Below, one piece after another: positions 12,161-31,420 of a stretch of DNA of 64,000 nucleotides. The stretch spans positions 64,001 to 128,000 of the IMG/VR virus record IMGVR_UViG_3300045738_001212. One strand, given 5' to 3'. The stretch is from a virus. Within the stretch, counting starts at the first letter, position 1. Every line of letters starts with the position of its first letter. Position numbers and translations under genes: made by a program. Below the pieces are notes generated by a model, which made no database searches, was not told the origin of the DNA, and saw only the letters and a program-made list of their open reading frames with translations.

Positions 12161-12242
12161 TGTCGTAATCCTCTGTATTTAGAATCAATAAATTTGCAGT
12201 ATATTGATAGCTACTCCAGTGGTGTCGCATGTCGTAATCCTC
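12161..12242 (-). CRISPR. mini-array D: 2 copies of the 13-nt repeat
   Basis: TGTCGTAATCCTC at 12161 and 12230 (+ strand), intergenic. Confidence 0.7.
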
Positions 12243-12252
12243 TTAACTGTCC

Positions 12253-12486
12253 TTAACGAGCCTTTTTGATATCGGCAGTTACCTTATCGAAAGGCTCCTT
12301 GACGTAATGAGAGTTAGCTTCAGTAACGACAACCGTTCCTTCTTTATCGGTCTGCTGCCCGTCGGCTTGCCCCGCAAAGGAGTAGTACTCGATGATTTTG
12401 TCAACTCTGACAGCTAACTGTTCGGTAGCTGCGCGGAGTGTCCCATGTACGTTGGTTTTATACTTATTTAGTTTTAGTGTTTTCAT
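12253..12486 (-). CDS. hypothetical protein
   Basis: ORF; start moved to MKTLK at 12486. Confidence 0.55.
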   Translation of the reverse strand: MKTLKLNKYKTNVHGTLRAATEQLAVRVDKIIEYYSFAGQADGQQTDKEGTVVVTEANSHYVKEPFDKVTADIKKAR

Positions 12487-12579
12487 AAAATTTAAGCGCG
12501 AGAGACAGAGCAGAAAGGTATTAACGACCCCGCCTCTCGCAAGTGTAGTTCCGCGTGACACTTCCCTACACTAAATTAA

Positions 12580-12745
12580 TGGGTGAGAGGATTCTCATTT
12601 ACCTCTATCGTTTCGGAGTCACAGCTTGAGTTTCAGTGAGAAACCCTACTTTGAACCAGCCCTTGTAAGCCCCCAGAGACGGTAATCTCCTGCAAACAAG
12701 CCCTGTACCTTAACTGCCGCGACAGCAGTTTATTCGGTCACACCC
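12580..12745 (-). ncRNA. structured ncRNA candidate with tRNA-like ends
   Basis: intergenic; 5' GGGTG pairs with 3' CACCC-A; T-arm-like AGAGG..AATCCTCT hairpin; internal hairpins. Confidence 0.6.
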
Positions 12746-12774
12746 TTCGCTGGCGATCAACCAGCAAAATTATT

Positions 12775-13107
12775 TTAAAGAACAAATATTTTAGAATCTT
12801 CTATGAAGACTCTGGGGTGATATTGATCAATATCTTTCCCGTCTTTTACATTTACAAATTTTCTTTTTTTGTTTACCCGCACTTGATGTTTCCATTTGGG
12901 GCGAGAAGACTTCTTTTCCTCTAGGGAACGAATGTCGCCCAAGTCTACGCAACCCGTAAGAGTTCGCTTGGTGATAGCGACATCCCCCATGTGCAAAGCG
13001 TGTGTGCGCTTAAGCACTACAGGTTTGTCGCCGTATGCGTGTGCTCGCTTACTGCCCTTAACCTCTAGGCACTTCTTCTTTGAATTGTAAATTACTACTA
13101 CTTGCAC
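12775..13107 (-). CDS. hypothetical basic protein
   Basis: GGAG RBS, GTG start. Confidence 0.55.
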   Translation of the reverse strand: MQVVVIYNSKKKCLEVKGSKRAHAYGDKPVVLKRTHALHMGDVAITKRTLTGCVDLGDIRSLEEKKSSRPKWKHQVRVNKKRKFVNVKDGKDIDQYHPRVFIEDSKIFVL

Positions 13108-13124
13108 GTTGTTATTTCTCCAGT

Positions 13125-13171
13125 TGTCGTAATCCTCTATAAATCGGTTAAGGGGTATTGTTGTAATCCTT
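13125..13171 (-). CRISPR. mini-array C: 2 repeats, 21-nt spacer
   Basis: TGTCGTAATCCTC at 13125 and TGTTGTAATCCTT at 13159, intergenic. Confidence 0.75.
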
Positions 13172-13662
13172 CAATTAACTCGCCAACTTGACCCTGCCAA
13201 GCCTTGATCCTCGTAATCGCTCTCTGATAAATACTGCTGAACTTCCTCATCGGAAGCGAAAAGCATATTCTTCTCATCAATGTAAAAAATACTTTTGTGG
13301 TAAGCCATCTTGCGAATTACGCCTCCATGAAAGCCTACTCCGCTATCTTCCTTACCGTGAACGCAGGTTATTTTAACTACGTTAGCTGCGTCACTCATAT
13401 ATTTGGCGCATAAGCCCAGCCCTTTCACTTTATAAATCCTGCCTCTGACGGGCTCATGGACGCTTTCGAACGCGCTCTTGATTTCTTCAATATCCTTATC
13501 AACACCATCATCCAGCCAATCGTCCTCATCATCTCCGTACTTCCAAGCTCCTTCAACCCCCTTGGTTCCTTCGTGGCCTACTGGACAGGAATGCTCCTTG
13601 GGCTGCTCTTCCGGCTTGTCCTCGTAAAAAACTTCAATTCCTAAAAGATGAGACTTTTTCAT
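13171..13662 (-). CDS. hypothetical acidic protein
   Basis: ORF translationally coupled to the ECF sigma gene. Confidence 0.55.
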   Translation of the reverse strand: MKKSHLLGIEVFYEDKPEEQPKEHSCPVGHEGTKGVEGAWKYGDDEDDWLDDGVDKDIEEIKSAFESVHEPVRGRIYKVKGLGLCAKYMSDAANVVKITCVHGKEDSGVGFHGGVIRKMAYHKSIFYIDEKNMLFASDEEVQQYLSESDYEDQGLAGSSWRVN

Positions 13663-14303
13663 AACAGATTTCTATTTTTTATTATCTTCCTTGCTCTTCG
13701 TCTAGCGTAAAATACCCTGCTCATAATCGTTCCTATCGAGCACTTCATTATTTTAGCAGCTTCGGCATAAGATTTTTCTTCTTCTATCACTAGCTCAATA
13801 ACCCTTTTTTGTTCGGGGTTCAGGCTCCCTTTTATCTGCGCCAAAACCTTCTTAAAGTGCTCAAAGCTTTCTTTCTCTTCAAGTCGGTTGCTGGGGCTTT
13901 CATCGTTAAGTAAGAGTATACCAGAACCTTGTAAGAAGTCAAGAGGATTTTTATCATTTTCTAAACAAAAATCTGCACAAAAATCTGAATAGGAAATCTC
14001 CTTAGATTTACGTCTTTTGTCCTGCCTGTAGAAATCATAGAAAGAATTGCGCCCAACCCTGAAAAACCACGTAGCAAAGGCACTTTTGAACTTAAAGGTC
14101 TTTATCCTCCTCCAAGATTTTACGCATGTAAGCTGCAAGATGTCTTTCGCGTCGGCTTCAGATACCCCCATTTTGAACAAAGAAGAGCGCACTAGGGCAC
14201 TATGACGCCCAAGAAGAACCTCGAATGCCTCCTTGCTACCTCTTTGACTCTTCTTTACTAAAGCTTCGTCTTTGAGGTTGGAAAGTTGAACTTTTTTGCT
14301 CAA
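13659..14303 (-). CDS. ECF (RpoE-like) sigma factor
   Basis: AFEVL, DILQ, F.TWFFRV..N, SYAEAAKIMKCSIGTIMSRVFYAR. Confidence 0.92.
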   Translation of the reverse strand: MSKKVQLSNLKDEALVKKSQRGSKEAFEVLLGRHSALVRSSLFKMGVSEADAKDILQLTCVKSWRRIKTFKFKSAFATWFFRVGRNSFYDFYRQDKRRKSKEISYSDFCADFCLENDKNPLDFLQGSGILLLNDESPSNRLEEKESFEHFKKVLAQIKGSLNPEQKRVIELVIEEEKSYAEAAKIMKCSIGTIMSRVFYARRRARKIIKNRNLL

Positions 14304-14324
14304 TTTTTCTTAAGCTACGGCGAA

Positions 14325-14556
14325 TGTTGTAATCCTCTATACCGATTGGAAGTACTATGTTGTGATCCTCTCAAATACTGGAACAACTCAAATGTTCTAA
14401 TCCTCTGTGCTTCTTTCATTCGGTGGTGTCGTAATCCTCACGCTTATCAAACGAGATGTCGTAATCCCCTTACTTGATACTAGGCTGTGCATAGTTCATC
14501 CCATGTTCTAATCCTCATCCTAATCCTAATCGATTTCGTGGTGTGTCGCAACCCTA
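14325..14556 (-). CRISPR. array B: 7 degenerate 13-nt repeats directly 3' of the tmRNA
   Basis: repeats at 14325, 14358, 14393, 14427, 14457, 14504, 14544 with unique 17-34-nt spacers. Confidence 0.85.
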
Positions 14557-14561
14557 AAAAA

Positions 14562-15020
14562 TGGTGGAGGCGGCGGGAATCGAACCCGCGTCTTTGGAGC
14601 CATCGGCTCAAATATACTACAAGCTTAATCAGTGCCATGTTCCTCGTATATAGCAGGTCACTGATTAAACCAACCGGGCCGCTCAAAGAGCGACTGGGAC
14701 TAACGTAAAACGTTAGACGCCTACACGAGTTTGAAGTCACATTTTATACTAGCGTTACAACCGCCCTAGTTTTTTGCTCGCTATCGACGCCCTAGCTCCT
14801 TAACGAGCATCCAGAGTAGGACGGGGCAGAACTTAAGCTGCCAGCGTGGCCTCTTCGGCCCAACCGAAACGAGCGAGAATCTCGTCTGCTTCAGCCAGAG
14901 AAGGAGCCATGTCAATATTACTATTGGCATATATGTTTTTAATGGAAGTTTTAAGAGGCCAACCATCATCCTCTGCTTGCAATCTGGCGTAAGATTCCAA
15001 ATCGAATCCAGTACGCCCCC
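14562..15020 (-). ncRNA. ssrA: tmRNA
   Basis: 5' GGGGGCGTACTGGATTCGA, 3' GGGTTCGATTCCCGCCGCCTCCACCA with G3-U pair; tag ORF 14833-14928 ANSN...ATLAA. Confidence 0.95.
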
Positions 15021-15902: not shown

Positions 15903-16094
15903 CTATTCCCCAGCCCACTCTTCTTGTATTACGTGGTCTATTAAGCCCTCTATCCAGTCATTAAACGTATCTTGATCGAAGTCAGTCTCCCCCGTTTCCG
16001 CCCTGTACATGTCGAGAAACTCTTCATCCACCTCCATGAGGAGTTCTCTCTTGTTGCCCTTCACTTCTAGTTCTCTTATTACTTTTATTTTCAT
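15903..16094 (-). CDS. small acidic hypothetical protein
   Basis: AGGAG RBS, ORF tiled. Confidence 0.5.
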   Translation of the reverse strand: MKIKVIRELEVKGNKRELLMEVDEEFLDMYRAETGETDFDQDTFNDWIEGLIDHVIQEEWAGE

Positions 16095-16263
16095 TAATAG
16101 CTCCTATTTTAGCCAGAAGTTCGTCTATCAAATCAAGCTGAGACATTGCGTAGACGAATCTCGTTCTGCTTAGATTGCTACCATGAGGGCTATATTTGTG
16201 CAACTCTTTTGTTCGTAGTTTTTTCCTTTTTTCAAGGATTTCTATAATCTTGTGTTTATCCAT
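16024..16263 (-). CDS. hypothetical protein immediately downstream of array A
   Basis: start moved to MDKHK at 16263 because the longer ORF runs into the array. Confidence 0.5.
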   Translation of the reverse strand: MDKHKIIEILEKRKKLRTKELHKYSPHGSNLSRTRFVYAMSQLDLIDELLAKIGAINENKSNKRTRSEGQQERTPHGGG

Positions 16264-16272
16264 ATACTCGTA

Positions 16273-16894
16273 TGTCGTAATCCTCTTAATATCGTCGGGA
16301 CGAAGCATGTCGCAATCCTCTTGTGCAGTCCAACCATATTTGTGTTCTAATCCTCTTAAAATCAGACTATGCGTACCCTGCGTGTTCTAATCCTCTTAAA
16401 ATATACAGGAGCAATCATGTTGCAATCCTCACTCTTAAAAGTTCACTACGGCGTGCTGTGTTGTAATCCTCTTTAAATCGCAAGCTGCTCATGTGTTATA
16501 ATCCTCTTGGTCCAAAGTATGACTGATGTTGTAATCCTCTTATACTTAAATTCGGTTACATGAGGTGCGTGTTGTAATCCTCGCTGGTTTTGTTGGTAAT
16601 GTTTTAATCCTCTTATACTTAAAAAACGCGCACAGCTTGAAATGTTTTAATCCTCTCAAATTTTACCACGATACTCCATGTTGTAATCCTCTCATGCTAA
16701 AATTACTTCTTCTGTTGTCGTAATCCTCTTTAACAGCCGTCGCAATGTTTTAATCCTCATACTTAAACTGTGCAGATTGACTCCCTGTGTTGTAATCCTC
16801 TTATACTTAAATTAGGATAAATCCGAATTATGTTTTAATCCTCTTACTTAAATTGTCAAATTCAGTCATCAGTAGGGTAAGTGTTTCAATCCTC
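16273..16894 (-). CRISPR. array A: 17 degenerate 13-nt repeats (minus-strand consensus GAGGATTACAACA) with unique spacers
   Basis: repeats start (+ strand) at 16273, 16308, 16343, 16383, 16418, 16459, 16494, 16527, 16570, 16600, 16643, 16679, 16716, 16746, 16788, 16831, 16882; period 30-51 nt; the first copy reads GAGGATTGAAAC. Confidence 0.9.
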
Positions 16895-17137
16895 TTATGC
16901 TTGTTGATTCCTTATTTGCCTTATGGCTCTACGATGCATCCTCATGTGCTGGGGGTGAGCTTCGCACTCGCCATCAATTAATTCCATATCACATATCTCG
17001 CATTTAGGCTCGTTTAAGTCAGTCGAATGGTGTGTTTCACGGTAATGTTGTAATCCTAAATCTTCTGCTGTCGAAGGAAACTTGCAGTTAGCCCTTTCGA
17101 GTTCAAGAATAGTTATGTTTCTTTCTTCTTCAGTCAT
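16895..17137 (-). CDS. 80-aa protein with CxxC-x8-CxxH putative Zn finger, between nuclease and array
   Basis: start overlaps the nuclease stop (ATGACTGA); its TAA abuts repeat 1 of array A. Confidence 0.6.
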   Translation of the reverse strand: MTEEERNITILELERANCKFPSTAEDLGLQHYRETHHSTDLNEPKCEICDMELIDGECEAHPQHMRMHRRAIRQIRNQQA

Positions 17138-18608
17138 TCTTACCTCCCAGCACGTAATTCTTAATGTTCATCGCCGCCAGCTTGTCGCGGTCATTCACCA
17201 CTCCACACTCAGGACACTCCCACACGCGCTGTGAGAGCTTTAAATCGTTGTAGATGTACCCACAGCCACACTTTTTAGATGTAGGCTCAAAACGGTCAAT
17301 TCTGATCATGTGTTTACCCGAGTGGTCGGCCTTATATTGGAACTTCGTGAAGAAGCTCCCCCAAGCAACGTCACTGATTCGGCGACTCATACCTCGCTGC
17401 TGGGCTCGACCATTGCGCTTATATTTTCCGTCCTTACCCTTTATGGGAGCTTTCTTTTCCTTCATTTGGGCAATGTTCAAATCCTCAACCGCAAAAGCAT
17501 TGAAGGGCATGTCTACTAGCGATCTGCTAAGTTCATGAGTGAAGTCGTCTCTCTTGTTTTTAATAGCCTCATCGATCTTCGCGCAAACCAGTCTTTGCTT
17601 ATTGTAGTTCTTACTCTTGAACTCCTTTCTAGCGAGCCGCCTTTGTCGAATTTTCTTTCGACGCAAGAGTCTTTGGTCGGTTTTGTACGGAGATAGCTTA
17701 TCGTCCGAGTATTCAAGCCCGAACTTGTCTAGGAAAACAGAGTTCTCAATTTTCGATTCGTCTGAAAGAGTTATGTAGTTTTTAATCCCTACGTCAATCC
17801 CAACAGTATTGGACTCATCAAATTCTTTCTTCTCTGGCATCGGAACTCCAGTATCCACGGGAATGAATACGTAATATTTATTCGTTGGAGTCCGAGTGAA
17901 AACGCACATGCCGAGTTTGGCCTTTGGGTGCTTCTCCAAAAACTCTTGCATGTTGATGTGCTGCTTAAACTTAATCCAAGTTTTGCACAGGGGCAGCTTG
18001 AATCGATTTTTTTCCCACTCCCATTTCATTTGGTTCGCTTCGCAATCAAAGTATTGGTTGTCCATCCAACTTCTAAAACGGGGGAATCCTTTATTTGGTT
18101 TTTTTGCAAAGTCTTTTTTGCTCTTCCAAAAGCCCTTAACTCTACGCTTTTTAAAACCCTCCCTATATGAAACTGCCAGCCTTTTGTATTGCCCTCCGAC
18201 AAGCCTACTCGGTGTTTCTTTTATCCAGTTGTATTCTTTGTCGTCGCCCTTTCTAAGCTTACGAAAATCTTTATCGGCCTGAGCAATGTCCAGCAACGGA
18301 AACCCAGAACATCTAATCTCTTTCTGGACTGCCTTATGTTCGTCTGACTTCTCTTCGTATACCCCGTCAGCAAGGTCTTTTTTCATTTTATCCTTAAGGT
18401 CTTGAAGATGTTTTTCGCCCCCAGACTTTTTCCATTCCTCGGTTCGTTCGTTTCTGGTATCCCAGTTTTTGGTTTGTCGGTCTACTTGCCAATTCCAATA
18501 CTTGCGGGCAGCGGCGAAGCTTTTGCTGAGAAAGTGGGTGCCGTCTTTATTTGTGTCAATTCGGTATTTTATGGCGATGACGATATTCTTAAGTTCTTTT
18601 TTGTCCAT
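17130..18608 (-). CDS. tnpB: TnpB/Cas12f-like RNA-guided RuvC endonuclease
   Basis: RuvC-I VGIDVG, RuvC-II AVEDL, Zn ribbon CGCG...CPEC, RuvC-III DRDKLAAMNI; GFPRFR motif; 492 aa. Confidence 0.92.
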   Translation of the reverse strand: MDKKELKNIVIAIKYRIDTNKDGTHFLSKSFAAARKYWNWQVDRQTKNWDTRNERTEEWKKSGGEKHLQDLKDKMKKDLADGVYEEKSDEHKAVQKEIRCSGFPLLDIAQADKDFRKLRKGDDKEYNWIKETPSRLVGGQYKRLAVSYREGFKKRRVKGFWKSKKDFAKKPNKGFPRFRSWMDNQYFDCEANQMKWEWEKNRFKLPLCKTWIKFKQHINMQEFLEKHPKAKLGMCVFTRTPTNKYYVFIPVDTGVPMPEKKEFDESNTVGIDVGIKNYITLSDESKIENSVFLDKFGLEYSDDKLSPYKTDQRLLRRKKIRQRRLARKEFKSKNYNKQRLVCAKIDEAIKNKRDDFTHELSRSLVDMPFNAFAVEDLNIAQMKEKKAPIKGKDGKYKRNGRAQQRGMSRRISDVAWGSFFTKFQYKADHSGKHMIRIDRFEPTSKKCGCGYIYNDLKLSQRVWECPECGVVNDRDKLAAMNIKNYVLGGKND

Positions 18609-18621
18609 AATTATAATCCTT

Positions 18622-18788
18622 ATTAAGTTTGGGGGTGGGAGGGAGGATTATTTCACTCCCACCCCCGAGGATTTTGTTGCCCCGAAAGCGACCCTTATGT
18701 AGACGAGCTATATAAGAAATCTTAATCTCTCGTATCTGACAACCGTAACTTCCCGTCCAACCGACGGTAGAGTTCGTATCAGCGAACT
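18622..18788 (-). ncRNA. tracr/scout-like structured RNA (5' leader of the nuclease gene)
   Basis: several hairpins plus anti-repeat segments AATCCTC (18667-18673), TAATCCTC (18643-18650) and GTTGT (18739-18743). Confidence 0.6.
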
Positions 18789-18794
18789 ATGAAG

Positions 18795-18822
18795 AGTATA
18801 CCTGAAACTGTTTTGAAGTCAA
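18795..18822 (-). promoter_or_regulatory. sigma70-type promoter for leader RNA, nuclease and array A
   Basis: TTGACT-16-TATACT. Confidence 0.75.
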
Positions 18823-19979
18823 GAGTTTTTTCCGAAAACTTCGTTCGACTGTTGGGTAACGCGAACGAAAGTGGCGCACTTGGGCATATCCTTTAGCCTT
18901 CTTGCTCCGATGTAAGTGCAGGTAGAGCGTAATCCACCAAGAATATCTTCTATCGTGCGCTTAACAAGTCCTCTATGTTCTACCCTAACCGTTTTCCCTT
19001 CGGACGAACGATAGTCCGCAACGCCACCGTTGTGCTTTTTCATGGCCGTCTCGGAACTCATTCCGTAAAAAGTCTTATATTTTTTGCCATCTATTTCTTC
19101 TTCTTGTCCTTCGCACTCCGTATGTCCAGCCAACATCCCGCCAAGCATGACAAAATCAGCACCTCCACCAAAAGCCTTGGCAACGTCCCCAACACAGGTA
19201 CAACCGCCATCAGCCATAATATACCCGCCAACGCCATGAGCGGCGTCGGCACACTCAACCACCGCGCTAAATTGGGGATAACCAACACCAGTCTGAATAC
19301 GAGTAGTGCAAACAGAACCACTTCCAATACCAACCTTGACGATATCTGCTCCATTTAAAATTAATTGCTCCGTCATCTCGCCAGTGACAACGTTCCCAGC
19401 AATGATAATAAGTGCTGGGTGCTCTTCCCTGACCCGTTTAATAAAGTCACAAAACCTCGCGGTATAGCCATTGGCTGCGTCAATACAAACAAATTGAGTA
19501 TGATAAAAATTCCAAGTAATATTATGGAGGTAGTCCATATCGTCAAATTTATTTTCGTCGTATTTAATGCCAATAGAGGGAGATATATGTTCATAAATTC
19601 TATTTTGCCAACAAGCTGAGTCTGGATCATGTTTCCAGTCCGCTGAGTTAGCTTCCTTGCTTTCCTGTGTTTTGTAAACTCCGTAGCCATCCATCTTGTG
19701 TAGCCATCTTTTTATATCGTTGTGTTTGCTGATGCAGGTAAGCATACGGTGTCGAGCGAAAGCCTTTGCCATCTCAAAGGTTCCGACTGTATCCATATTT
19801 GAAGCTACAATTGGAACGCCTTTCCAACCGTAAGCTTTTGGGTCAGCACCTTCCCCGCCAGCGTTAGGAAAAGTAAACTCGCGAACCAAGTCAACTTCCT
19901 TACGAGAAGTTAAGGTGGAACGCTTCGGGCGAAGAAGAACGTCCTTGTAGTCTAATTTTATTTCTGGTTCAATTCTCAC
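18819..19979 (-). CDS. guaC: GMP reductase
   Basis: [48 protein letters not shown]. Confidence 0.95.
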
Positions 19980-31066: not shown

Positions 31067-31420
31067 TTACTTCTTCTTTTTCTTTAGCCACGGTGGGAGA
31101 TTATTTCCGCCTTCCTTCTCCTCTCCCTTCTTGTCTCCCTTCTTGTCCCCTTTCTTGTCCCCTTTCTTGTCTCCCTTTTTCTTGAAGGGGTTTTCTTTGT
31201 TCTTCTTCGCGCTATCCTCTACAATTTTAACGCACTTCGTTTTGTCTTCGTTTACCTCGTAGCCCGAATTACATTTAGGTGGATAGCCCGCTTTCTGTTC
31301 AGCCCTAAGCTCCTCGATGGCCATTCGGACGCCCTCAACGTCCTCGGTAAAATCAATTTCCAAAGTGCCGCGTTCGTCCACTTTTTTTAACCAAGTCTTT
31401 TTGTTTTTATAGTCCCACAT
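31067..31420 (-). CDS. hypothetical protein with (KKGD)n tandem repeat
   Basis: ORF with 12-nt tandem units; GTGTAT 8 nt upstream. Confidence 0.55.
   Translation of the reverse strand: MWDYKNKKTWLKKVDERGTLEIDFTEDVEGVRMAIEELRAEQKAGYPPKCNSGYEVNEDKTKCVKIVEDSAKKNKENPFKKKGDKKGDKKGDKKGDKKGEEKEGGNNLPPWLKKKKK

What the first reader, a model, noticed from the sequence alone, without database searches (positions are those of the whole stretch)
18622..18788. Leader RNA with a split anti-repeat whose wobble pairing fits the repeat's degeneracy
The ~170 nt between the TTGACT-16-TATACT promoter and the nuclease ATG folds into hairpins (AGTTCG-CTGATA-CGAACT; CCGTC..GACGG; ACGAG..CTCGT; an 11-bp GGGGGTGGGAG/CTCCCACCCCC stem). 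It carries AATCCTC (18667-18673), complementary to the near-invariant GAGGAUU, and a separate GUUGU (18739-18743), complementary to ACAAC. The observed variants ACGAC, GCAAC and GCGAC are the changes tolerated by G-U wobble with GUUGU; AAAAC, AGAAC and ATAAC give one mismatch. Two-segment repeat:anti-repeat pairing is known for Cas12f tracrRNAs. Placement upstream of the gene, instead of at the 3' end as for omegaRNA, is unusual.
Basis: partly seen in the sequence, partly recalled or inferred. Interest (0 to 1): 0.85.

Follow-up and report, generated by a model that had tools for sequence, protein, structure and literature searches.

The report
Conserved small RNA partnering a phage TnpB nuclease

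Summary

**What is there.** The region 18627-18791 encodes a ~165-nt structured RNA with its own sigma-70-type promoter.
- I found it in 15 distinct versions from marine metagenomes.
- A homologue of the 492-aa TnpB (RuvC D272/E375/D475 intact) lies downstream in all 20 fetched loci with room, directly in most.
- Six helices are supported, 98.9% of cells are paired, and five pairs show compensatory changes.

**What holds up.** AAUCCUC occurs twice, at 18667-18673 in a single-stranded linker and at 18643-18649 in the terminal hairpin loop.
- Both copies are invariant in every homologue.
- They are the only perfect complements to the GAGGAUU repeat core in the whole transcription unit.

**What fails.** GUUGU is the 5' strand of a covarying internal helix.
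- It reads ACUGU, GCUGU, CUUGU or AUUGU in relatives whose repeats stay ACAACA.
- It mismatches 21 of 40 repeats in this phage.

**Context.**
- In most relatives the terminal hairpin is followed by a U-run, and two relatives have a second promoter after it. There the RNA is an independent gene.
- The 13-nt-repeat arrays are strain-variable, and at least one has its own promoter.

**Best reading (about 0.5).** A tracrRNA-like half of a naturally split omegaRNA. This would be a new variant of a known kind. The scan noted it only on this same genome.

The parts
18795..18822 (-). Sigma-70-type promoter TTGACT-16-TATACT of the small RNA
   Evidence: 10/12 match. TTGAC and the -10 box (TATACT; CATAAT in L009) are kept in homologues. 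A near-copy of the same promoter lies at 13915-13942.
18627..18791 (-). Structured small RNA of about 165 nt (ends approximate), candidate tracrRNA-like scaffold of the TnpB
   Evidence: 15 distinct homologues, 86% mean column identity. Six helices, 98.9% paired cells, 5 pairs with compensatory change, 0/500 shuffles reach the covariation score. Single copy in the genome. No Rfam family.
18738..18743 (-).
   Evidence: Covariation at alignment columns 53/122 and 54/121. Sequence not conserved in relatives.
18744..18752 (-). Conserved single-stranded linker GAAGUUACG (AAAGUYACG in relatives); untested candidate partner for the RAC end of the repeat
   Evidence: Unpaired in the consensus fold. 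GUU in all but the L007 phage, which has GUC and whose only repeat has G at position -4. One observation only; inference.
18667..18673 (-). AAUCCUC copy 1, in the single-stranded linker between helix P3 and the terminal hairpin
   Evidence: Invariant in 15/15 homologues, including 15 loci fetched with a pattern that did not contain it. Complementary to GAGGAUU.
18631..18666 (-). Terminal GC-rich hairpin P6 (11-bp stem). Terminator-like in relatives; no U-run in the window
   Evidence: U-runs of 5 or more in 9/15 relatives.
18643..18649 (-). AAUCCUC copy 2, in the loop of P6
   Evidence: Invariant in all homologues although loop length varies. Mean unpaired probability 0.73.
18615..18621 (-). 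AAGGAUU, Shine-Dalgarno sequence of tnpB; can pair in cis with AAUCCU copy 1 across the hairpin
   Evidence: RNAalifold on the longer alignment predicts this helix. Absent in L012, L013 and L026.
17130..18608 (-). tnpB-like gene, 492 aa, RuvC D272/E375/D475 and four zinc-ribbon cysteines intact
   Evidence: Pfam HTH_OrfB_IS605, OrfB_IS605, Cas12f1-like_TNB. Nearest natural solved protein is ISDra2 TnpB, E 6e-22. Catalytic residues conserved in the clade. Single copy, with no Y1 TnpA and no Cas1 in the genome.
16895..17137 (-). Conserved 80-aa zinc-finger protein gene overlapping the tnpB stop; carries an in-frame insertion with one repeat unit (17046-17058)
   Evidence: Protein alignment A2. 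Present after tnpB in five of six relatives aligned; the 74-aa ORF in L009 aligns poorly (19%).
16273..16894 (-). Main array: 17 units of GAGGAUU-RNR-ACA plus a 17-30-nt unique spacer
   Evidence: No minus-strand terminator predicted between the promoter and the array. Other spacers between the same repeats in contigs of other metagenomes.
12161..14516 (-). Smaller arrays and single units (12161-12242, 13125-13171, 14325-14516)
   Evidence: The unit upstream of the ECF sigma gene is conserved in L001 and L004.

Best explanation
The region encodes a stand-alone, highly structured small RNA of about 165 nt. It is the RNA partner of a domesticated, catalytically intact phage TnpB: the tracrRNA-like half of a naturally split omegaRNA.

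**Shown**
- The RNA has its own conserved promoter and six helices, four of them with compensatory changes.
- It always sits upstream of this TnpB clade.
- It carries two invariant AAUCCUC motifs, one in a single-stranded linker just 5' of the terminal hairpin and one in that hairpin's loop.

**Inferred**
- One of these motifs pairs with the GAGGAUU part of the 13-nt units GAGGAUU-RNRAC-A. These units stand 5' of 17-30-nt variable segments in arrays, at least one of which has its own promoter.
- This would rebuild the stem-4 / pseudoknot / guide geometry seen in the ISDra2 omegaRNA, where the crRNA-like part is only 16 nt.
- TnpB would then cut DNA matching the variable segment.

**Consequences for the finding**
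- In this window the terminal hairpin lacks a U-run. The RNA, tnpB, the zinc-finger gene and the 17-unit array are therefore probably one transcript.
- Copy 1 can also pair in cis with the tnpB Shine-Dalgarno sequence, which is a possible secondary autoregulatory role.
For: **Structure**
- 15 distinct homologues give 6 helices with 98.9% paired cells.
- There are 16 compensatory cells in 5 pairs, and 0 of 500 shuffles reach the covariation score. Slid controls pair at only 44-55%.

**Linkage to TnpB**
- A TnpB homologue lies downstream in all 20 RNA-bearing loci that have room, directly in most; L026 has an inserted promoter and ORF between. Upstream neighbours differ between loci.
- The RNA is 86% identical across loci where the TnpB proteins are 58-79% identical.

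**The AAUCCUC motifs**
- Both copies are invariant, including in 15 loci fetched by a pattern that did not contain the motif.
- They are also invariant in L012, L013 and L026, where tnpB has another Shine-Dalgarno sequence or its own promoter.
- They are the only perfect complements to GAGGAUU in the 1.95-kb unit.

**The repeat units look like guide units**
- 49 of 54 copies are on one strand.
- Only 1 of 46 precedes a real ORF.
- An array at genome position ~43.2 kb starts about 8 nt after a TATACT box.
- Its syntenic counterparts L049 and L057 keep the promoter and the distal flank. They hold 7-8 and 3 units with unrelated spacers.
- X4 contigs identical to the window across tnpB, and other X4 contigs with different spacers in the array, occur in one metagenome; no contig links them to one strain.

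**Protein and relatives**
- RuvC and the zinc ribbon are intact.
- The gene is single copy, with no TnpA and no Cas1 in a genome that is 91% complete.
- A 32%-identical relative (L020) has a classic 37-nt-repeat array directly at its 3' end.

**Precedent**
- In ISDra2 the crRNA-like region is 16 nt: a stem-4 strand, a 5-nt pseudoknot strand and -1A (PMC10097598).
Against: - There is no expression, processing, binding or cleavage evidence.
- Repeat and anti-repeat are both invariant, so there is no covariation between them.
- The 7-8 bp duplex (-10.3 kcal/mol) is matched by 7.6% of shuffled repeats.
- Relatives that keep the RNA have few units within the DNA I could see: 0-6 in up to 13 kb. The motif's conservation therefore cannot be due to large arrays.
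- Some units have spacers conserved across phages whose TnpBs are only about 65% identical. That is unlike fast-turnover CRISPR spacers.
- AAUCCU copy 1 can pair in cis with the tnpB Shine-Dalgarno sequence in 8 of 15 homologues. This is a simpler regulatory explanation.
- No protospacer was found.
- The pseudoknot partner is unidentified.
Confidence: 0.5

Rival explanations
1. The RNA is a cis-acting leader that controls tnpB expression and has no guide function. The hairpin with its U-run acts as an attenuator, and AAUCCU sequesters the tnpB Shine-Dalgarno sequence AAGGAUU. Complementarity to the array repeat would then follow from the repeat resembling a Shine-Dalgarno sequence.
For: - RNAalifold predicts an AAUCCU/AGGAUU helix bracketing the hairpin.
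- AAGGAUU followed by 8 nt and AUG is the tnpB translation start in the window, L010, L014, L021, L022 and L023.
- The hairpin is followed by a U-run in most relatives.
- In the window the RNA runs straight into tnpB with no second promoter.
Against: - L012 and L026 have a second TTGAC promoter after the terminator.
- L012 and L013 have a different tnpB Shine-Dalgarno sequence, yet both AAUCCUC copies stay invariant.
- About 110 nt of covarying, near-invariant structure upstream (P1-P5) is far more than Shine-Dalgarno sequestration needs.
- In L001, L004 and L007 the AAGGAUU copy is 25-190 nt from the tnpB start, so it is not its Shine-Dalgarno sequence.
Confidence: 0.15
2. The RNA is a complete omegaRNA placed 5' of tnpB, with its guide in cis. 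The layout would be scaffold, long stem 4 (AAUCCU ... hairpin ... AGGAUU), RAC and guide. The dispersed arrays would be later duplications of its 3' end, or unrelated. The RNA would not normally act as a separate tracrRNA.
For: - In L007, L004 and L001 the post-hairpin copy follows the repeat consensus (GGAUU-ACGAC-A, -AAGAC-U, -CCGAC-G). It is followed by 25-190 nt that are not the tnpB start.
- L007/L015 show no other unit in 14 kb.
- The L007 hairpin has only two U after it.
Against: - The cis copy is missing in L012, L013 and L026.
- Where ATG follows directly, the copy reads AUU instead of ACA.
- Strong U-runs (5-9 U) in most relatives would cut the guide off.
- In the window the 'guide' would be the start of the tnpB ORF itself.
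Confidence: 0.12
3. The RNA is a trans-acting regulatory small RNA or part of a sponge network unrelated to DNA targeting. Its C/U-rich motifs would bind Shine-Dalgarno-like GAGGAUU sites in phage RNAs. Alternatively, the arrays would titrate this small RNA or a GGA-binding protein such as CsrA. TnpB linkage would be co-inheritance only.
For: - The repeat looks like a strong translation start (UUUAAG..AAGAGGAUUACAACAUG).
- It does serve the 94-aa ORF at 16024-16308.
- Two exposed copies of an anti-Shine-Dalgarno motif beside or in a terminator hairpin are typical seed positions. This rests on my own knowledge of staphylococcal small RNAs with UCCC motifs.
- CsrB-type sponges carry about 18 GGA repeats (own knowledge).
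Against: - Only 1 of 46 units precedes a real ORF.
- ACA at positions -3 to -1 is nearly invariant (39 of 40 have A at -1). Spacer length is constrained, which a GGA sponge does not require.
- Linkage to TnpB is perfect across varied contexts.
- Relatives with the RNA have hardly any GAGGAUU sites.
Confidence: 0.1
4. AAUCCUC is conserved for a structural or protein-contact reason, and its match to the repeat is coincidental. The arrays would use another scaffold or none.
For: - Duplex energy is not significant against shuffled repeats.
- There is no repeat/anti-repeat covariation.
- CCUC overlaps the slippery CCUCCCUCCC run of the hairpin's 3' arm.
Against: - Two exact 7-mers fall within 165 nt when only 8 exist in 158 kb.
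- No other complement exists in the transcription unit.
- No other conserved structured RNA lies near tnpB, and the zinc-finger ORF region is variable with indels.
Confidence: 0.08

Closest known systems
ISDra2 TnpB omegaRNA (IS200/IS605 OMEGA system; PDB 8H1J, 8EXA)
   Same: - The protein is the nearest natural solved relative (E 6e-22), with the same RuvC D-E-D and zinc ribbon.
- The ISDra2 omegaRNA is a 'natural sgRNA' whose crRNA-like part is only 16 nt: stem-4 strand, 5-nt pseudoknot strand, then -1A (PMC10097598).
- That matches the size and layout of the 13-nt unit GAGGAUU|RNRAC|A followed by a guide of about 16-20 nt.
   Different: - The RNA lies upstream of tnpB with its own promoter and (in relatives) its own terminator. 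It does not overlap the gene's 3' end.
- No TnpA and no transposon ends are present; the gene is single-copy and syntenic.
- The guide-bearing part is physically separate and multiplied.
- Whether the folds correspond was not tested.
Cas12f tracrRNA:crRNA (two repeat:anti-repeat duplexes)
   Same: - A separate scaffold RNA whose anti-repeat sits at its 3' side.
- A non-palindromic repeat.
- The guide lies 3' of the repeat.
- There is two-part contact (stem plus pseudoknot) in the solved complex, as cited in PMC10097598.
   Different: - The repeat core is 13 nt (up to about 24 with an eroding A/U-rich extension), against about 36 nt.
- Only a 7-8 bp anti-repeat could be identified.
- The protein is closer to TnpB than to Cas12f.
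- Arrays are scattered over at least 7 loci.
TranC (transposon-CRISPR intermediate) systems; 'functional RNA splitting'
   Same: - A TnpB-sized nuclease that uses a tracrRNA plus arrays without Cas1/Cas2.
- Some are phage-borne, e.g. CauTranC9 (bioRxiv 10.64898/2026.03.27.714800).
   Different: - Reported TranC repeats are 32-38 bp, in one array next to the gene.
- Here the repeat core is 13 nt, there are multiple dispersed arrays, and the tracr-like RNA is upstream.
- Sequence similarity to LaTranC is limited to the zinc ribbon.
- Clade membership was not tested by a tree.
IS200 tnpA 5' UTR Shine-Dalgarno-sequestering stem-loop (own knowledge)
   Same: A leader element that can mask the Shine-Dalgarno sequence of the downstream transposon-family gene. 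This is the model for the cis-regulatory rival.
   Different: The RNA here is much larger, independently terminated in relatives, and conserved where the Shine-Dalgarno sequence differs.

Membership tests
TnpB (OMEGA) system | RuvC-like D-E-D triad and C-terminal zinc ribbon | tested here: met
   D272, E375, D475 and four Cys align to the ISDra2 catalytic motifs and are invariant in 13 clade members. Pfam OrfB_IS605 and Cas12f1-like_TNB are above cut-off.
TnpB (OMEGA) system | omegaRNA encoded at or overlapping the 3' end of tnpB, with the guide at the transposon right end | tested here: not met
   The tnpB stop overlaps a conserved protein-coding zinc-finger ORF with indels. There is no complement to the repeat core there. 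The conserved structured RNA is upstream.
TnpB (OMEGA) system | Mobile element: TnpA partner, multiple copies, transposon ends | tested here: not met
   No Y1 TnpA in the genome, which is 91% complete, and a single TnpB copy. The locus is syntenic in diverged phages. The serine-recombinase type of TnpA was not searched.
tracrRNA (type V / TranC-like) | Separately transcribed small RNA next to the effector gene | tested here: met
   The promoter is conserved in all homologues. The hairpin is followed by 5 or more U in 9 of 15, and L012 and L026 have a second promoter after it. In the window itself there is no U-run. Transcripts were not observed.
tracrRNA (type V / TranC-like) | Anti-repeat complementary to the array repeat | tested here: inconclusive
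   There are two invariant 7-nt complements, 8 nt for the loop copy. They are short, show no covariation with the repeat, and have an energy that is not exceptional. The second segment, GUUGU, is refuted.
tracrRNA (type V / TranC-like) | Binds the effector and is required for crRNA-guided cleavage | not testable with these tools
   Needs RIP-seq and cleavage assays.
CRISPR array | Direct repeats of about 23-55 bp | tested here: not met
   The conserved core is 13 nt. An 11-nt A/U-rich extension is present in only some units.
CRISPR array | Unique spacers of similar length that differ between related strains | tested here: met
   Spacers are 17-30 nt with no self-matches of 14 nt or more. Syntenic arrays in L049 and L057 have other spacers and other unit numbers between conserved flanks. 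Contigs of other metagenomes carry other spacers between the same repeats. A subset of single units is conserved across the clade.
CRISPR array | Adaptation genes (cas1/cas2) | tested here: not met
   No Cas1 in the genome.
Riboswitch / attenuator leader | Known aptamer family; the expression platform must control the gene directly downstream | tested here: not met
   No Rfam family even at E up to 10. An independent promoter lies between the RNA and tnpB in L012 and L026.

The most novel reading that the evidence does not exclude
A phage-borne, naturally split omegaRNA system that would be the smallest CRISPR-like design seen so far.
- A TnpB is guided by a stand-alone ~165-nt tracr-like RNA plus guide units whose repeat is only 13 nt (stem-4 strand, pseudoknot strand, -1A).
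- These units are multiplied to about 45-50 in at least 7 arrays, at least one with its own promoter. The arrays turn over between strains without Cas1/Cas2.
- Living relatives would span the series from a fused single guide (L007) through a terminated tracr with 1-5 conserved units (L010, L001) to the expanded arrays of this phage.
Probability: 0.4. Interest if true: 0.9.

Novelty: new variant of a known kind. Interest (0 to 1): 0.72.

Why it matters
If the reading is right, four things follow.
- This locus is a natural snapshot of the step in which an omegaRNA splits into tracrRNA plus crRNA, with fused and split forms among close relatives. [quoted passage not shown]
- A 13-nt repeat would then suffice. 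No CRISPR finder would detect such arrays, so similar systems may be widely missed.
- It raises the question of how new guides are acquired without Cas1/Cas2.
- It offers a compact (492 aa) nuclease with a modular guide that could be engineered.

If the cis-regulatory rival is right instead, the RNA is still a new conserved phage RNA family governing a domesticated TnpB.

Tried and rejected
- **Close protein relatives in IMG/VR:** none found with peptide patterns.
- **Whole-record motif counts for L005, L007 and L015:** these records are not held.
- **Relatives of a virus record:** cannot be drawn.
- **RNA evidence:** no RNA holder is listed for this stretch, so expression, ends and processing could not be examined.
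- **Protospacer search:**
  - Three 19-20-nt spacers gave no hit in viral contigs.
  - The conserved 19-mer CACGTACTACCATTGTAGA gave one Chryseobacterium hit in genome contigs, which is the number expected by chance.
  - I had considered and dropped a resemblance of that spacer to the 16S rRNA region around CTACAATGG.
  - No spacer matches the phage's own genome at 14 nt or more.
  - Spacers match the related loci only at orthologous units.
- **Rfam:** nothing at gathering level; only noise at E up to 10.
- **Weak nhmmer hits in GC-rich loci L028 and L040 (E 6e-4 to 4e-3):** treated as chance. These loci were pre-selected by the search pattern, and the 262-aa ORF directly downstream is too short for a TnpB; its family was not checked.
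- **L054:** a different, ordinary CRISPR array, with no TnpB-like gene in that record.
- **'Array of tiny ORFs or gene translation starts':** rejected, because only 1 of 46 units precedes a real ORF.
- **Iterons, partition sites or ECF-sigma promoters:** considered and rejected. The motif shows strict strand bias, irregular 30-51-nt spacing and no bipartite layout.
- **The 94-aa ORF at 16024-16308:** no similarity to the ORF at the same position in L010.
Full report
**Setting**

The window is part of a 157,997-bp virus record that is 91% complete.
- It carries a tmRNA (14562-15020), a manA RNA (12576-12766) and six tRNAs. DNA runs that hold it are marine or seawater metagenomes.
- Genes around the finding lie on the minus strand.
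- GMP reductase occupies 18819-19979. A 492-aa TnpB-like protein occupies 17130-18608 and matches Pfam HTH_OrfB_IS605, OrfB_IS605 and Cas12f1-like_TNB.
- An 80-aa ORF (16895-17137) overlaps the tnpB stop.
- About 17 copies of GAGGATT-RNR-ACA follow at 16273-16894.

**Observation check**

- The promoter TTGACT-16-TATACT is the best sigma-70 match in the 7-kb scan.
- The 165-nt RNA (18791 down to 18627) folds at -56.9 kcal/mol, z = -3.24, and no shuffle of 200 folds as well.
- AAUCCUC occurs twice, at 18673-18667 and 18649-18643.
- In the whole genome this 7-mer occurs 8 times in minus sense, against 63 for its complement GAGGATT.
- The two copies are the only perfect complements to GAGGAUU between the promoter and the first array repeat.

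**The RNA is a conserved gene product**

- Homologues of the protein at 58-79% identity were found in metagenomes, and their contigs were fetched.
- All carry the same upstream sequence.
- A metagenome scan used a pattern from the middle of the RNA that did not include AAUCCUC. It returned 28 loci, of which 15 are true homologues and the rest are unrelated.
- Fifteen distinct RNAs align with 86% mean column identity, which is better conserved than the proteins next to them.
- RNAalifold gives six helices.
- On that structure 98.9% of cells pair, five pairs show compensatory changes in 16 cells, and 0 of 500 shuffles reach the covariation score. Partners slid by 1-3 columns pair at only 44-55%.
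- nhmmer finds one copy in the phage genome. Rfam has no matching family.

**Linkage to TnpB**

- All 20 RNA-bearing loci with room downstream have the TnpB homologue downstream, directly in most; L026 has an inserted promoter and ORF between. Three further loci end at the RNA.
- Upstream neighbours differ: GMP reductase, small ORFs, or a 164-aa ORF.
- The small zinc-finger ORF after tnpB is also conserved as a protein in most relatives.
- The conserved module is therefore small RNA, tnpB, zinc-finger gene.
- RuvC D272/E375/D475 and the four zinc-ribbon cysteines align to the ISDra2 TnpB catalytic motifs and are invariant in the clade.
- The genome has one TnpB copy, no Y1 transposase and no Cas1. 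This is a domesticated, probably active nuclease.

**GUUGU is not an anti-repeat**

- GUUGUC (18743-18738) pairs with GGCAAC (18681-18676) in helix P3.
- The first two pairs of P3 covary: ACUGUC/GGCAGU in most homologues, GCUGUC/GGCAGC in L007, CUUGUC/GGCAGG in L010, AUUGUC/GGCAAU in L039.
- Relatives that read ACUGU still have ACAACA repeats. There is no co-variation with the repeat.
- Within this phage, 21 of 40 exact units mismatch GUUGU, including the commonest variant AAAAC.
- The ACGAG/CUCGU hairpin is also not conserved.

**AAUCCUC holds up**

- Copy 1 lies in the single-stranded linker AAAAUCCUC(UA) between P3 and the terminal hairpin P6. Copy 2 lies in the P6 loop.
- Both are invariant in all homologues, although the loop length varies.
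- They stay invariant in L012, L013 and L026, where tnpB has another Shine-Dalgarno sequence or its own promoter. Cis pairing with the tnpB Shine-Dalgarno sequence therefore cannot be the only reason for their conservation.
- The limits are clear. The duplex is only 7-8 bp (-10.3 kcal/mol) and 7.6% of shuffled repeats do as well. Both partners are invariant, so they give no covariation test.

**Leader or separate gene**

- P6 is followed by 5-9 U in 9 of 15 relatives, as in an intrinsic terminator.
- L012 and L026 have a fresh TTGAC-N17 promoter after it. In those phages the RNA is an independent gene.
- The window copy has AAACUUAAU instead of a U-run, and no minus-strand terminator is predicted down to the array.
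- Here the RNA, tnpB, the zinc-finger gene and the array are probably one transcript.
- The AAGGAUU after P6 is the tnpB Shine-Dalgarno sequence in the window and several relatives, and it can pair with copy 1. This is a plausible autoregulatory side function.
- In L001, L004 and L007 the AAGGAUU copy is far from the start codon. There it follows the repeat consensus (…ACGACA, …AAGACU, …CCGACG), as a fused single guide unit would.

**What the repeats are**

- Across the genome, 49 of 54 GGATTNNNAC sites are on the minus strand. Further arrays lie at genome positions 42.8-43.2 kb (9 units), 44.6-44.7 kb and 46.7 kb.
- Only one of 46 units precedes a real ORF, so they are not gene starts.
- The 43-kb array begins about 8 nt after the -10 box of a TTGACT-N17-TATACT promoter like that of the small RNA.
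- An IMG/VR scan for two adjacent units found syntenic arrays in two other phage fragments, L049/L060 and L057.
- Their promoter and distal flank are conserved (about 77% identity for L049 and about 70% for L057 over the flanks). Unit numbers differ (9-10, 7-8 and 3) and the spacers are unrelated.
- The X4 metagenome holds contigs identical to the window across parts of tnpB and separate contigs with other spacers between the same repeats; X5 and X6 contigs also carry other spacers (tables 5, 5c, 7, 8). No contig links an identical tnpB to a variant array.
- A subset of single units is conserved across the clade.
  - GGAUAACAACA plus YYGGAGAWUCACACUU (16 nt) follows the zinc-finger ORF stop directly in L010, L014 and L004. 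It also occurs downstream of tnpB in L023, L030 and L001, in L001 after a methyltransferase gene.
  - UUCGCCGUAGCUU lies upstream of the ECF sigma gene in the window, L001 and L004.
- A 32%-identical relative (L020) has an ordinary 37-nt-repeat array abutting its 3' end.

**Mechanistic reading**

- In the ISDra2 TnpB structure the omegaRNA is a 'natural sgRNA'. Its crRNA-like part is 16 nt: the 3' strand of stem 4, a 5-nt pseudoknot strand with three Watson-Crick pairs, and -1A before the guide (PMC10097598).
- The unit GAGGAUU | RNRAC | A has this size and layout, and A at -1 is present in 39 of 40 units.
- I therefore read the small RNA as the tracr-like half. The anti-repeat (most simply copy 1) lies at the 3' end of the scaffold, and P6 stands where ISDra2 has a tetraloop.
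- The pseudoknot partner is unknown. A candidate is the invariant single-stranded AAAGUYACG. It is GUC only in L007, whose single repeat has G at -4. That is one observation and remains an inference.

**Comparison with the known**

- Reported TranC and type V arrays have 32-38-bp repeats in one array beside the gene (bioRxiv 10.64898/2026.03.27.714800).
- Altae-Tran et al. describe arrays arising by duplication of omegaRNA segments (PMC10691335).
- A 13-nt repeat core, many dispersed arrays and an upstream tracr-like RNA are new variations on that theme.
- Membership in the OMEGA family fails on RNA position and on mobility. Membership in CRISPR fails on repeat length and on adaptation genes.

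**Verdict**

- Confidence that the RNA is functional and structured is about 0.97.
- Confidence that it works with TnpB is about 0.85.
- Confidence that it is the guide scaffold pairing through AAUCCUC is about 0.5.

Noticed in passing
window 16895-17137 (-); L001:4422-4673; L010:2009-2215; L014:7136-7351: The small ORF overlapping the tnpB stop is a real conserved zinc-finger protein (MTEEERQKTILELE...KCExCGExLxDGKCxDH). In the window, L001 and L013 it carries an in-frame insertion of 14-17 aa holding one or two repeat units (AGGATTACAACA plus about 20 nt). Repeat units can therefore be inserted into coding sequence.
   Followed up: partly
L020:3815-4200: A 443-aa relative (P0042, 32% identical) has a classic CRISPR-like array starting inside its last codons. 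It has six units: four copies of the 37-nt hairpin repeat CTACGAGTGGTAGTTAAGGCTATAGTACCACTCTGAC plus two degenerate ones, with spacers of about 30 nt.
   Followed up: no
genome 42,930-43,060 (outside the window) and window 12180-12205 (-): A second repeated element, GCAAATTTATTGAYTCYAAATAYA, directly precedes three of the repeat units. It also occurs in L049. It contains a TTGACT-like hexamer, and its function is unknown.
   Followed up: no
window 13915-13942 (-): A near-copy (80% over 40 nt) of the small RNA's promoter region, TTGACT-16-TATACT with a TG extension. It suggests a shared class of phage promoters, also used by the 43-kb array.
   Followed up: partly
window 14516-14562 (-): The tmRNA 3' end (CCACCA) is followed by TTTTTT, a degenerate unit (AGGGTTGCGACA) and then five to six repeat units running up to the ECF sigma gene.
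   Followed up: no
L054:395-2003 (IMGVR_UViG_3300028920_000027, 182 kb): An unrelated, ordinary CRISPR array (repeats spaced about 70-73 bp apart, at least 22 repeats) whose repeat ends in GAGGATTTCAAC. No TnpB-like gene was found in that record.
   Followed up: partly
L007:6419-6736: A thioredoxin gene lies about 1 kb downstream of tnpB in the L007 phage. A preprint reports that host thioredoxin activates a phage Cas12 'hacker' nuclease (bioRxiv 10.1101/2025.01.20.633832). This may be coincidence.
   Followed up: no
window 31104-31180: A 12-nt tandem repeat (CCTTCTTGTCTC, about 5 copies), probably within a coding region. It was not examined.
   Followed up: no
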